64,000 nt of DNA from Sphyrna mokarran (lineage: Eukaryota): contig JAGIQG010000016.1 of assembly GCA_024679065.1 (NCBI GenBank), forward strand, positions 13,516,001 through 13,580,000. Direction: 5' to 3'. This document shows positions 11,878-29,212 of the stretch, one piece after another; position 1 is the first letter of the stretch; each line of letters starts with the position of its first letter. A program made the position numbers and the translations under genes. The notes beneath the pieces are model-generated. The model was not told the DNA's origin. It saw only the letters and a list, made by a program, of their open reading frames with translations, and did no database searches.

Positions 11878-11911
11878 AAATATAGCCGGTGGAAGTGGAA
11901 AATTACTGCAG
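11878..11911 (+). pseudogene. Probable dead copy of the 36-nt (type C) microexon
   Basis: cag|AAATATAG...ACTGCAG|gtttgt resembles 53768-53803 at both ends, but it is 34 nt long and has an in-frame TAG. Confidence 0.35.
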
Positions 11912-13913
11912 GTTTGTACAGTTTTGTTTTAAGAAAAACAGACATTGGCCGAATGGCAGAACGGCCAGTCTTAGGAAATAATACTTCCAAATAGGCTTAT
12001 AAGCTAACAGTACAGGTATTGAAGGAAGGTTTAAACAAGTTACTTTGATCTTTTTTAAAGATATGTGCTAATATCCTGAATGTTCAAAAACCATACTTTA
12101 CTTCTGCCAAAGGCAGTTTGCTTTGAAGCATCTTCATAAACCGTATTAAGGCAAAACCATATTATAAGGGGGAAAAAAACTTGCCTTGGGAATGTGCACG
12201 TTTTATCAGTGGAGTTTATTATGTAATGGGAATTTAGGCATTTAGTCAAATTTCATGAATCGGATTTATTCACTGTCCAGATAATATGGATTCATGAACA
12301 GATATCTGTTAATGTGGTTTGGCAATGACCTACACATGAACTTATGGGAACACACCCTTGAAGTTTGCCGCTGTTGTCTGTCTATTGGCGGATATAGGAT
12401 GTTGAGTTAGCCAAGACGGCAAGATTCAAAGGACAAGTGTCATTGTGCAAGAGGACAAGATGCAATTGGCTAAGGTTTATTGCAGGTATTATTGTTGATG
12501 TATCTGTGTTGAAGCTGATTGATTTAAAACTAATGAATGGTAGGAATAATTGATCAGAAAATCTATCGATTGTTCTATTTTGAATTGTATACGCCAGAAT
12601 TCATTAGAAAGGCCTAGCTGCTCCAACTTTGGTGATTTTCCTTAGAGGCCTCTGGTCAAAATAAAGTTTACATTATTAAACTGAGTCACTGACTTCGTGA
12701 GTGCTGAAATATCAGATAGTACCCGGCCACCCTGAAAACCGCACCAGTGGAGTAAAATACCCATAACTATAAAATGTTGCAGCAAAATCTTCACTTCATA
12801 TTTTCATGGACGTCTCTGAAGCTACAAATCTATTTGTCCCACCATAGAATTATTGTTCATTATTACATTTTTTCATGTACAATATTTGTATTTATGAATC
12901 TCAATATGTTTATGATTTTGACGTTGCATCGGACTCATGTTAACTGTTTGTCCTGTCTGAGCATTGACCCCTGGGCAAGGCTGACTTGTTTTCCAATAAA
13001 GAATGTTCAATGTAAATGAAGTACGAAGTGCAATGGCAGGAATGTCGATGGTTCAAACGTCACCGCCCCCACCCCCAACCCCCACCCCCGCGCTATAAAG
13101 GTGAGATGTAATCTGAATGATTCTGCTGACCTATCAGCAATAATCATTGTCAGTATTTTGTTCACATTTTGTGATAGTTGCTTATCTGTAAAGTCGCTAA
13201 GTTTATCTTCTTCCTAAATATCCTTCTGTGAGCAGTTTCCAACATATTTGTACATCATGGTAAAATGCTATTAAGCGTGGATTATGCCCCCTGAATTATA
13301 GCAATCTACTTGCCCCTGACGCAATAATTTCAACCTTTATACTTTTAAAAATGAAGCTCAAGATTTAACTGTTAACGAGGGTGTTAACTGTGTTTCTGTA
13401 CTTATGCTTAGATTTTGCAATCCTATGTCCCATTATATATCTGCTTACTGTGTATTATAAATGCACTTCTTAACATTTGAAGCATTCACTTGACATGGAT
13501 CGCACAGCTAATGCGTTTCATTTGATTTTGCGCTACATGCCCCTTGTGATATAAGCATCATGTGCTTGCAACTTTTTTTTTGTAACCTGTTTTGGCATAA
13601 CCTACGGTTCACAACAAAAAAAAGTCAGCACTGGAAATCGTTAGTTGTAAAATGATTTTACTTCTCATTCAGTGCACCAATAATTTTTTGCTCGTTCGTT
13701 GTCATATTTACAAAACTGTTGATGCACAGTAAATAATACGTTGCATGTTCTAAACATTTATAATGATTTGACTTCTCAATCCGGTTTGCAGAAGACGCAT
13801 TGAAGTGTAAGGAAACCGAGATCAATTCATTCAATATTTCAAGCGCAGCAGCAATTCGCAGAATTTGTTGATACAAAATTGCCTTACATTGGGATCAGGA
13901 GTGTTTTTGTTAG

Positions 13914-13942
13914 ATGCAACGACCATCGGAAAAAAAAATAAC
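13914..13942 (+). pseudogene. Dead type A microexon
   Basis: ttgttag|ATGCAACGACCATCGGAAAAAAAAATAAC|atgagc resembles 38558-38584. It is 29 nt long, the donor is GT>AT, and the upstream gcaattcg motif is shared. Confidence 0.55.
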
Positions 13943-13959
13943 ATGAGCTTGTTCCTGGG

Positions 13960-14130
13960 ATAAGACCAGAAGATCATAGGACATACGAGCACAATTAGGC
14001 CGCTTGTCTATCTAGTCTGCTCCTCCATTCAATCATGGTTGATATTTGCCTCATCCTCATTCTCCTGCCTTTCCCCCATAACGTCTGATCCCCTTATTAA
14101 TCAATAACCTATCACTCTCTGTCATAAAGG
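13960..14130 (-). mobile_element. CR1 3'-end fragment
   Basis: 'aagatcataggacatacgagcacaattaggcc..ccattcaatcatggttgat' is the typical reverse complement of a CR1 tail. Confidence 0.7.
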
Positions 14131-14229
14131 CACAACCAAATTGTAATGTGACATGAGTGAATTAAACAGTTATGATAAGGTCAGGTAAACATAGTCTGCT
14201 GCCCGTTTTGAACTGTAGAATAGACAGGC

Positions 14230-14365
14230 GCTGATATCATCTAATGATCACCACCACTCAGGCGAGAGGCAACGATGAAAAAGGAGGCCACAGACCCCAC
14301 AGGGGAAATGAACCCATGCTGCTACGTTGTTACAAATCGCCAGCCAGCAGAGTTTAACAGACCTC
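14230..14365 (-). mobile_element. tRNA-derived SINE fragment
   Basis: 'ggaaatgaacccatgctg..cagccagcagagtttaacagacc' is a B-box/A-box-like head on the minus strand. Confidence 0.5.
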
Positions 14366-26190: not shown

Positions 26191-26696
26191 AATCCGTTCC
26201 GTGGTGCTGCGAGGCAGAAGTACTTAGGACGTTGTCAACTGTTGTGACTGACTCCAGCCACTGTCATAAAAACGCCGAACGTGCCCAGTGATAACTTCGT
26301 TCCGTTCTCACGAACGTCCAATTTGAAAAGCTGGGCTGCACTTGTTCGGAAGCTGACAGCAGTGCACCAAACATCCAAAGCAGTGGCAGTTCTGGAACAT
26401 TCAAAAAATGCATCTCTACATGATAGGAACGGAAACGACAACCTAATTTTGGAAATCTCCTCCATCACATTATTAATTGTAAGGGAATTTAGTTCAATAT
26501 GGTGTTAAGCTCCCATTAAGGTACGCAATGCATTTTGATAAATGAATTCCAAAATAAAATCCAGAAATTTTGCAAAACAAAACTATTCTAATAACATTTA
26601 ACGAAACAAAATATATTCATCTGTGCAAATTCGCTGAAATATGTAACGAATTTTCAAGTCACAACTTGGCTCCTATAACATTTGTTTAATTTTTAG

Positions 26697-26723
26697 AGTA
26701 CAATGAACTTCAGATGAAATGCG
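26697..26723 (+). CDS. Microexon type A, 27 nt, phase 1-1: (E)YNELQMKC
   Basis: tttgtttaatttttag|AGTACAATGAACTTCAGATGAAATGCG|gtaagt. Confidence 0.85.
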
Positions 26724-28727
26724 GTAAGTGCCATATGTACCCTCTCGAAGATATACTTTATGAATGCCTCATTCGTGAGGGCCTTGACATATATGTTGCT
26801 ATTCGTTTTTTCTCATTATCTAAGGTAGACGCAAATGAAGGATGATATTGTATTACGTCTTCTCAGACTGAAGTTAAAAACGTTATTTCAAGAGCAATTG
26901 AAATAATTATGTCGTTCAGTTCTTATTCTTGTCACTGACATTTAACGCCACGCGCTCAAGTTACGAGTGATGTGGCATTATTTTTTGTGATCACCAATAA
27001 ACAAATTCCACACAAATAGCATGCACATAACATACATGAATAAACATGTAATTCTGTTAACATACCTGAAGTTGCATGTCCAATTGAAAAGAAACATCAG
27101 CACTGCAAATTGTCAGATGGTGTCTAAAAATTTCTAAATACTGAAAATAACTCAGCATTTTAAATGATTAACCAGTTGATTTCTCAAAGACTACTGACTG
27201 ATTCATTGACGGTATTTCTCTCCTCAGATCTGTTGTGTATTGAGCATTTCCAACACAATCCTACTGCTGTCTCCATTTCCTATACCTCCAGCATGTTAAT
27301 GCTTTCCGAGCTTTCATGCGTCTTGGCCGTTAGCATTAGATGAGCTTCATATTACCTCTGCCTGCATCTTCTTTAAACTACACGCAGTGCAGTGAGCAAA
27401 ACTCGCCTTACAAGTGTATTAAAAGAATACTGCTTAATGAAAATATCTGTTATCCATCATTCCATACTGAGATGTTTGGATGGGTGTGGGGAGAGCGTGC
27501 TGGGATAGGGTGCGGTGAAGGGAATGGATTGAAAAGATTCAGGTAAGTTTGAGTGAAGCCATGAAAAAAAAAATGTCTACTTGCTCTGTGCTTAGTGGCT
27601 AATAAGTGTGCAGTAATCGAATTTCTTGAAGGAACTATTTATTTAGCTTGATGTGTTTCACAGAACATAGTAAATAATATTTAATTTTACAACGATACAA
27701 GTCACAATTCCGGCAATTGGGAAGGAAACTGAAAGGTCTTTGCTCCGTGGTAATTAGAGTGTGAAACGATCGACGAGACCAAATGTCTTCAAAAAATATT
27801 GTGTGTACATCTGAAATAAACATTAGCTGGCAGGCTCACTAACAGGAGTTGCCAAAAGTGCATGTCGAATTCAACCGGCAGACAAGCAAACTGTCATCGA
27901 CAACATGATGGCTTCCACAGAATATTTGGGGCAAACGTTTATTTTATTTCAAAGCGTTTTGTTTTCTTTGGTACCATTATTTGCAATGTATTGTCTCCTT
28001 TATCCGTGGGACTGAAAGCAGTTGCACTACACAGTGTTTGTAGATTATTCCCTGTGGTTAGTTCTAGGAATCTTTGTTTTAAAATATTGATCACACTATA
28101 TTTCATAAGCTTCTGCATGGGATAAACCAACTTATTCATAGTTATTAAGAGCCTAATCTCTGATACATTTACAGTGGAATCTTCCATTGATCTCATATAT
28201 AAAAATGAACATTGCTTCATTCCCGTACTGTAGCCAACCAGGCAAAAAGCAAGCCAGATACGAGTTTGAATTACTCCATTTACTAATCCAGAGTAATCTG
28301 GTGGGTTTGAATTTTGGCAGTGTCTTATTGTCCATACTTCCGTAATGGCGAGTATTTGTCAGTGGAAGCGCAAATCGTTGAATGGGGATGTCTGGTTGTA
28401 TCGCAGTACTACCTCTGAAAGCTGAACACAAAAGACATGCCCTATTACCATTTCACACGAAGGGAAGAGAACATTATTTTTCCATGTAAGAAGGCAAGTT
28501 ACGATATTCTGACTTACAGCCATTTTTTTTCATAGTTTGCTGTCTCTGTGAAATCTGCAATAAATAACTTATGGAAAACACAATTGAGTGCATTGCAATG
28601 GTTTATCCCATAAACACATAACCTTACCCTCTGATTCAAAATTTAACTCAATAATAGGCACAACGTAGAAATGGAGTAATAATGACACCAAACAATCGTT
28701 GAATATCTGCATCAGCAGTGGTCATTT

Positions 28728-28826
28728 TTCTTCTTCTTCTTCTTCTTCTTCTTCTTCTTCTTCTTCTTCTTCATCTTCTTCCTCTTCTTCTTTGTCCTCT
28801 TCTTCTTCTTCTACTGCTACTCCTTC
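28728..28826. repeat. (CTT)n microsatellite
   Basis: Read directly; positional counterpart of 42585-42880 in the duplicated unit. Confidence 0.95.
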
Positions 28827-29183
28827 AGACCCGCACACAATGTGCAGAAGAGAAACAAGCTTCAACAATGGTTATGATCTTCTGATAATATTCGGTTAAG
28901 GAACAACAATGGAAACTACACCACAAAGATTGGAAACCAATGAGATAACATAGTTATTCCTTTTGATATAAACATTGCAAAATGATGTAAATGCGTAGAA
29001 ATTTATTTTCACAGCCACACTCCAAAAAATTAAAACCGTTTTATTTTAATCAAAAGTAATTCCTTTAGTGCTATCTAACAACACACTGCATGTTTTCCCC
29101 CTCTGTGCCAGTTGAACCAGTCACTTAACAATTTGTCACATAACATCATTTTTTTTATTTTTAAAACATATTTTAATGTTTGG

Positions 29184-29212
29184 ACTACGGGGACCTTCAG
29201 AAAAAAAGTACA
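29184..29212 (+). pseudogene. Dead type A microexon (DYGDLQKK..)
   Basis: taatgtttGG|ACTACGGGGACCTTCAGAAAAAAAGTACA|gtgagt: acceptor AG>GG and 29 nt long; paralog of 43799-43825. Confidence 0.75.

What the first reader, a model, noticed from the sequence alone, without database searches (positions are those of the whole stretch)
11878..29212. Dead microexon copies interleaved with intact ones (exon birth-and-death)
Seen: recognisable paralogs with specific lesions occur at 29184 (AG>GG, 29 nt), 13914 (GT>AT, 29 nt), 24487 (GT>AT, TGA), 19398 (CAG>CAA, frameshift) and 11878 (34 nt, TAG). Inference: symmetric exons can be lost without breaking the frame, so the array turns over like a gene family inside one gene. 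Most dead copies carry a splice-site lesion, which fits a living host gene, although decay of the whole gene is not excluded.
Basis: partly seen in the sequence, partly recalled or inferred. Interest (0 to 1): 0.7.

Follow-up and report, generated by a model that had tools for sequence, protein, structure and literature searches.

The report
Dead microexon copies in duplicated array
A vertebrate gene with a long run of tiny exons was enlarged by an old internal duplication, and two neighbouring copies have since lost their splice sites, a known way for such arrays to shrink; only one of the five broken copies first reported holds up, and no RNA was available to show skipping.

Summary
Partly confirmed. 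The + strand carries about 18 phase-1 microexons (14 of 27 nt, 3 of 36 nt, 1 of 21 nt) for a Lys/Glu-rich helical peptide. The array grew by an old, colinear tandem duplication of 12-14 kb (B about 20.3-32.2 kb, C about 32.9-46.9 kb). All five lesions are literally in the sequence, but only 29184 is a solid paralog (of 43799; flanks align; a read-derived contig confirms the lesions). 13914 and 19398 are undecided; 11878 and 24487 score like chance. One solid dead copy was missed (28231, AG>TG plus GT>AT), and 37804 is a possible third. Splice sites are better kept than neutral decay predicts (corrected p 0.007-0.16), which favours a living gene, but no RNA run was listed and the host gene is unidentified. 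Chicken BG tails are the closest architecture. Two twists: the two solid dead copies are neighbours forming one 18-residue module, and 29184 may survive as an in-frame 12-nt exon through an internal CAG. Exon turnover of this kind is known (BG, caseins, Dscam, KIR). Interest 0.3.

The parts
20330..32240 (+). Duplication unit B (approximate ends)
   Evidence: Colinear + strand matches to 32.9-46.9 kb; 52-63% identity in 36 of 36 aligned tiles
32900..46950 (+). Duplication unit C (approximate ends); all six paired exon slots intact
28231..28257 (+).
   Evidence: 33.0 bits; both flanks align, z 15.6 and 10.7
29184..29212 (+). Lesioned K-family microexon, acceptor AG>GG, 29 nt (+2), donor GTGAGT kept; paralog of 43799
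   Evidence: identical in a read-derived contig of run X1
29201..29212 (+). Possible in-frame 12-nt exon from the internal CAG (hypothesis)
   Evidence: No AG between 29120 and 29199; 12 nt to the kept donor; stop-free. No RNA evidence
37804..37833 (+). Possible dead M-family copy (acceptor AA, cut off by a repeat tail)
   Evidence: core 43.5 vs 31822; flanks null-like
13914..13942 (+). Claimed dead copy; undecided (K-like core, repeat-like sequence right behind it)
19398..19419 (+). Claimed dead copy; undecided, score at chance level, position plausible
11878..11911 (+). Claimed dead copy; not distinguishable from chance
24487..24513 (+). Claimed dead copy; not supported
17848..17874 (+). Intact 27-nt exon, K family (old module)
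18588..18614 (+). Intact 27-nt exon, L family (old module)
23038..23058 (+). Candidate intact 21-nt exon, only in unit B; weak
   Evidence: leave-one-out score 3.8
23407..23433 (+). Intact 27-nt exon, N family, unit B
26697..26723 (+). Intact 27-nt exon, K family, unit B
30889..30915 (+). Intact 27-nt exon, L family, unit B
31822..31857 (+). Intact 36-nt exon, M family, unit B
34945..34971 (+). Intact 27-nt exon, N family, unit C
38558..38584 (+). Intact 27-nt exon, K family, unit C
42118..42144 (+). Intact 27-nt exon, L family, unit C; live partner of 28231
43799..43825 (+). Intact 27-nt exon, K family, unit C; live partner of 29184
45659..45685 (+). Intact 27-nt exon, L family, unit C
46553..46588 (+). 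Intact 36-nt exon, M family, unit C
52238..52264 (+). Intact 27-nt exon
53007..53033 (+). Intact 27-nt exon, L-like
53768..53803 (+). Intact 36-nt exon
57043..57069 (+). Candidate intact 27-nt exon, N-like
   Evidence: score 15.8 vs best minus-strand null 13.6
57857..57883 (+). Weak candidate 27-nt exon with AAG acceptor
   Evidence: found by eye, read out; below the score-8 list

Best explanation
The window holds part of one vertebrate gene whose helical, coiled-coil-like region is built from symmetric phase-1 microexons, most like the cytoplasmic tail of a butyrophilin/BG-type Ig-superfamily protein (identity inferred, about 50%). SHOWN: a K-L two-exon module was duplicated, then a 12-14 kb block with six exon slots was duplicated in tandem; afterwards two neighbouring copies in unit B took splice-site mutations (28231 both sites; 29184 acceptor plus 2 extra bases) while their unit C partners stayed intact. 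INFERRED: because every exon is a multiple of three in the same phase, the spliceosome skips the lesioned copies, the frame survives, and the helix is 18 residues shorter in unit B; selection keeps splice sites and frame but tolerates amino-acid change.
For: Colinear duplication. 16 exons joined in order give 0 stops in phase 1 against 12 and 11 in the other frames, 54% E/K/R/D/Q, no Pro. 14 of 16 training exons score 17 or more in leave-one-out against a best minus-strand score of 13.6. 4 of 6 B/C exon pairs are intact in both copies; corrected for ascertainment, p 0.007-0.044 when frame and stops are counted, 0.025-0.16 on AG/GT alone. Donor +3..+6 identical at 14 of 16 positions in live pairs (p 0.045-0.10). 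29184 lesions identical in a 6,885-nt contig of run X1. Precedent: BG1 tails vary from 13 to 21 exons through a four-exon repeat (PMC5043582).
Against: No cDNA seen. No Ig, transmembrane, B30.2 or lectin exon found: 0 relevant Pfam matches in 235 of 235 + strand frames of 50 aa or more. pN 0.32 vs pS 0.38 over 35 codons shows little protein-level constraint, and live-pair exon identity (79 of 117) is barely above flank identity (62%). Heptad periodicity is not significant (p 0.076; best 0.051 against exon-order shuffles among 12 settings). The stop-free frame is partly circular because the first screens kept stop-free candidates. Exon sizes (mostly 27 nt) differ from BG (21 or 24 nt).
Confidence: 0.6

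Rival explanations
1. 29184 is shortened, not dead. With the old acceptor gone, the first downstream AG (29199) is used, and the 2 extra bases make the product an in-frame 12-nt exon. Net change in unit B is then 18 residues replaced by 4, a loss of exactly 14 (two heptads).
For: No AG lies between 29120 and 29199; the 12-nt exon is stop-free and keeps a GTGAGT donor; without the +2 it would be 10 nt and out of frame. The A-run is confirmed in run X1. A like rescue by an in-frame cryptic acceptor is described for donkey CSN1S2I exon 17 (PMC12470106).
Against: In-frame by chance has about 1 in 3 odds; the 15 bases before the CAG are former exon and purine-rich; no RNA seen; hydrophobic moment is the same with or without it (0.72 vs 0.67).
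Confidence: 0.25
2. The whole gene is a pseudogene and the lesioned copies are simply the first exons to decay.
For: pN/pS near 0.85; no 5' or domain exon in the window; the uncorrected AG/GT-only test is weak at high assumed identity (p 0.16); many retroelement insertions.
Against: After roughly 30-40% intron divergence, 10 of 12 paired slots keep AG, GT, length and an open frame; both losses fall in one unit; donors are better conserved than flanks. This excludes old death better than recent death.
Confidence: 0.2
3. All five sites named by the first reader are true relics, too old for their flanks to align.
For: Old intact exons also fail the flank test. 13914 reaches 8.5 bits with a narrow K profile, 0.03 expected per shuffled window. 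19398 sits 810 nt behind an L exon, close to the L-K (953) and L-M (894, 933) spacings elsewhere; weak in-register intron match E 0.026.
Against: The same narrow profile gave four minus-strand hits of 7.3-8.9 bits and was one of 18 profiles tried. Anchored scores of 11878, 13914, 19398 and 24487 are matched 27-39 or more times on the minus strand. 24487 fails every test.
Confidence: 0.05
4. The host is not a butyrophilin/BG relative but another coiled-coil protein, such as the neck of a type II C-type lectin, or the paralogous exons are used as alternatives rather than in series.
For: No diagnostic domain in the window; phase-1 small exons also occur in lectin necks (recalled, no call).
Against: No lectin-domain exon follows the array within the window; a possible terminal exon at 58985 (early stop, AATAAA at 59184 and 59271) would fit a BG-like end without B30.2, though it may be a dead L copy.
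Confidence: 0.4

Closest known systems
Chicken BG genes (butyrophilin family), cytoplasmic heptad exons
   Same: Long run of small exons with split codons for a putative coiled coil; 13-36 such exons per gene (PMC4046983, section 8 read); multi-exon repeat units that expand and contract (PMC5043582, passages); one predicted exon of BG10 absent from cDNA.
   Different: BG exons are 21 or 24 nt; here 14 of 18 are 27 nt and 3 are 36 nt, with kilobase introns. The duplication here is old (introns about 60-70% alike), not allelic. No Ig V or transmembrane exon was found in the window.
Casein genes CSN1S1 / CSN1S2
   Same: Many small in-frame exons, exon duplication, loss by donor or acceptor mutation, rescue by an in-frame cryptic acceptor (PMC12470106, passages).
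   Different: Secreted phosphoproteins; casein introns are phase 0 (recalled), whereas phase 0 gives 12 stops here.
Arthropod Dscam duplicated exon arrays
   Same: Birth-and-death evolution of paralogous exons inside one gene is stated for these arrays (PMC3236188, passages).
   Different: Dscam exons are larger, code for parts of Ig domains and are mutually exclusive; here the exons are 9-12 codons and probably used in series.
KIR lineage III pseudoexon 3
   Same: A constitutively skipped exon left in a working immune gene (PMC6288254, passages).
   Different: A whole Ig-domain exon, skipped with its splice sites intact; not a microexon array.

Membership tests
Exon birth-and-death array in one gene | Paralogous exons arisen by intragenic duplication | tested here: met
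   K, L, M, N families with aligned flanks; colinear B/C block
Exon birth-and-death array in one gene | Lesioned copies beside intact paralogs | tested here: met
   28231 and 29184 solid; 1 of the 5 listed sites passes all tests
Exon birth-and-death array in one gene | Host gene expressed and lesioned copies skipped in mRNA | not testable with these tools
   No RNA holder listed
Exon birth-and-death array in one gene | Splice sites and frame of survivors under purifying selection | tested here: inconclusive
   p 0.007-0.16 by model; pN 0.32, pS 0.38
Exon birth-and-death array in one gene | Exon content differs between haplotypes or species | not testable with these tools
   No genome held; one DNA run only, no second allele listed in 28830-38950
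Butyrophilin / BG | Ig V (and C) exon and transmembrane exon upstream | tested here: inconclusive
   Not in the window: no such Pfam match in 235 frames; may lie upstream of it
Butyrophilin / BG | Series of small split-codon exons coding a charged helix | tested here: met
   periodicity itself only a trend
Chicken BG | Tail exons of 21 or 24 nt | tested here: not met
   1 of 18 candidates is 21 nt; 14 are 27 nt, 3 are 36 nt
Butyrophilin (B30.2-bearing) | Terminal B30.2/PRY-SPRY exon | tested here: inconclusive
   None in the window; could lie beyond 64000
Collagen (27- and 36-nt exons, recalled) | Gly-X-Y repeats | tested here: not met
   2 Gly and 0 Pro in 150 residues
Casein / SCPP genes | Phase-0 exons (recalled) | tested here: not met
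   12 stops in phase 0

The most novel reading that the evidence does not exclude
Exon loss in this array is limited by helix register as well as reading frame. A 27-nt exon is 2.5 helical turns, so losing one flips the hydrophobic face; the two solid lesions hit neighbouring exons that form one 18-residue module, and a new 12-nt exon made from the second (lost acceptor, then +2 bases) would make the net loss exactly two heptads. Microexons would die in register-preserving pairs, with compensatory splice and frame mutations. Support is thin: one event, adjacency p 0.17, lower hydrophobic moment for single losses (0.36 and 0.13) than for paired loss, rescue or no loss (0.67, 0.72, 0.81).
Probability: 0.15. 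Interest if true: 0.6.

Novelty: new member of a known kind. Interest (0 to 1): 0.3.

Why it matters
Turnover of small in-frame exons inside one gene is already described, so the general claim is not new. This locus adds a clean internal control: each lesioned exon has a dated, intact twin in the same molecule. If the gene is a butyrophilin/BG relative, it would extend BG-style tail turnover to a 27-nt module in another vertebrate lineage. If paired, register-keeping loss holds across species, protein geometry, not frame alone, would govern which symmetric exons can be dropped. Such genes are also easily mis-annotated.

Tried and rejected
No whole genome is held, so haplotype and neighbour-gene checks were not possible. 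No RNA holder listed; this is no evidence either way. Only 28830-38950 was laid on reads, so 11878, 13914, 19398, 24487 and 28231 were not checked base by base. A gene-trained scan for one-lesion exons did not separate signal from noise (77 vs 90 hits) and scored the two true dead copies below its own cut-off (7.2 and 5.7). In one search about ten high + strand peaks some 67 nt behind intact exons are self-match leftovers and were ignored. Pfam found only retroelement domains; Rfam found 0 families. Earlier scan notes held nothing on this genome or its look-alikes; the 8 word matches concern other genomes and were not used. Collagen and casein-type readings were rejected. The idea that the 21736/23592 inverted repeat marks an inversion was rejected, since the enclosed DNA stays colinear with unit C. 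Heptad periodicity tests gave trends only. Four literature searches returned no description of such an array in cartilaginous fish; the library lacks most subscription papers, and no supplements were read.
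Full report
Setting. The window is 36-48% GC and rich in retroelements; three frames match reverse transcriptase or endonuclease families. The repeat types look like those of cartilaginous fish, but that is recalled, not tested. No genome is held.

The array. Splice-site scans of both strands gave a + strand series of short exons. I count 18 intact-looking candidates between 17848 and 57883: 14 of 27 nt, 3 of 36 nt and 1 of 21 nt. Two are weak (23038, 57857). The 16 known, joined in order, have no stop in phase 1 and 12 and 11 stops in the other frames; the 150 residues are 54% E/K/R/D/Q with no proline. 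The stop-free result is partly circular, since filtered for it. A less circular check: 14 of 16 exons score 17 or more when left out of training, against a best minus-strand score of 13.6. Heptad periodicity is only a trend (p 0.076; best 0.051 against exon-order shuffles among 12 settings).

Birth. Self-comparison shows a colinear tandem duplication, unit B (about 20.3-32.2 kb) and unit C (about 32.9-46.9 kb), with 52-63% identity in 36 tiles. Six exon slots pair up in order: 23407/34945 (N), 26697/38558 (K), 28231/42118 (L), 29184/43799 (K), 30889/45659 (L), 31822/46553 (M). An older K-L module duplication lies inside each unit, and a still older K-L pair stands at 17848/18588. The units hold no large exon, so the duplication looks intragenic.

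The five claimed copies. The letters are as described. Only 29184 is a firm paralog: 65.7 bits against a null maximum of 3.8, each flank aligning to 43799 (z 11.0 and 8.2). A 6,885-nt contig of run X1 covers 28830-35628 with no difference, so its lesions are not an assembly slip; X1 may be the source sample and is not independent. 13914 has a K-like core that beats 250 of 250 null sites but is matched by 11 minus-strand peaks in a blind scan; the sequence behind it aligns to a repeat-like stretch elsewhere, so the donor lesion is doubtful. 19398 scores at chance level, has a plausible position and one AT-rich upstream match, out of register, to the flank of 34945. 11878 and 24487 have null-like flanks; the core of 11878 is reached by 7 of 250 null sites and that of 24487 by 84 of 250. 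One-lesion look-alikes are as common on the wrong strand (90) as on the right one (77). Against my own reading: old intact exons also fail the flank test, so 13914 and 19398 are undecided, not refuted.

28231 is the unit-B twin of 42118, with AG>TG and GT>AT. 37804 resembles M exon 31822 over 47 nt, has AA for AG and ends at a repeat tail; no minus-strand or shuffled peak reached its score, but its flanks do not align.

Is the host alive? Four of six pairs are intact in both units. Given that a pair is seen only if one member survives, neutral decay gives p 0.007-0.044 with frame and stops counted, and 0.025-0.16 on AG/GT alone, for assumed identities of 62-75%. Donor positions +3 to +6 match at 14 of 16 (p 0.045-0.10). 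The coding letters are hardly more conserved than flanks (79 of 117 vs 62%; pN 0.32, pS 0.38). This fits selection on splicing and length with a fast-changing sequence, as in immune-receptor tails, but recent death of the whole gene is not excluded. No RNA run was listed.

Mechanism. Shown: duplication, then splice-site lesions in two adjacent unit-B copies. Inferred: skipping keeps the frame because all exons are phase 1 and multiples of three. Two refinements are hypotheses. First, the first AG after the lost acceptor of 29184 is at 29199, and with the 2 extra bases it defines a stop-free 12-nt exon with a kept donor. Second, 28231 and 29184 together make one 18-residue module; single 9-residue losses give lower hydrophobic moments (0.36, 0.13) than paired loss, rescue or no loss (0.67, 0.72, 0.81), using unit-C exons as stand-ins. 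Unit C itself scores only 0.51, and adjacency has p 0.17, so this is a lead only.

Comparison. Chicken BG genes have 13-36 tail exons of 21 or 24 nt (PMC4046983; passages and section 8), with codons split between exons (PMC5938342; passages) and a four-exon repeat that expands and contracts (PMC5043582; passages). Butyrophilins exist in cartilaginous fish and vary in heptad number among vertebrates (PMC12841164; passages). Caseins lose small exons by splice-site mutation and show cryptic-acceptor rescue (PMC12470106; passages). Birth-and-death is the stated model for Dscam exon arrays (PMC3236188; passages), and KIR genes carry a skipped pseudoexon (PMC6288254; passages). The array works like a BG tail; membership is not shown, and the BG exon size is not met. 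Searches (listings only, apart from the papers named) gave no account of this array; no supplements were read.

Verdict. New member of a known kind; interest 0.3, against 0.7 first given.

Noticed in passing
window 21736-21897 and 23592-23753: A 162-nt inverted duplicate (155 of 162 identical), recent, of host intron; it brackets exons 23038 and 23407 and could loop both out of the pre-mRNA.
   Followed up: partly
window 58985-59280: Strong acceptor, stop after six full codons, AATAAA at 59184 and 59271: possible terminal exon, or a dead L-like copy.
   Followed up: partly
window 59514-59593: K-like acceptor flank followed by a 29-nt stretch and a repeat insertion; 0.05-0.15 expected by chance; possible further relic.
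   Followed up: partly
window 19082-19117: 36-nt stop-free stretch with a strong acceptor, weak donor and M-like peptide; a rival to 19398 as the third exon of the old module.
   Followed up: partly
   Followed up: no
window 26697, 29184, 43799: K exons carry a Tyr-x-x-Leu motif, lost in 38558; spacing does not fit an ITAM and the residue at -2 does not fit an ITIM (consensus recalled).
   Followed up: no
window 28728-28812 and 42588-42660: A TTC microsatellite sits at the same place in both units, so it predates the duplication.
   Followed up: no
window 1900-4500: Decayed frames that look like a retroviral pol/integrase remnant (by eye, recalled; no Pfam match).
   Followed up: no
window 39600-41040 and 47700-50140 (minus strand): LINE copies with reverse transcriptase and endonuclease matches inside introns of the array.
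   Followed up: partly
window 38969-39578 and 62890-63498: A 610-nt element in two inverted copies, 90% alike.
   Followed up: no
window 28830-38950: Two contigs of run X1 cover the stretch with no difference and no second allele outside high-copy repeats; contigs drop rare variants.
   Followed up: no
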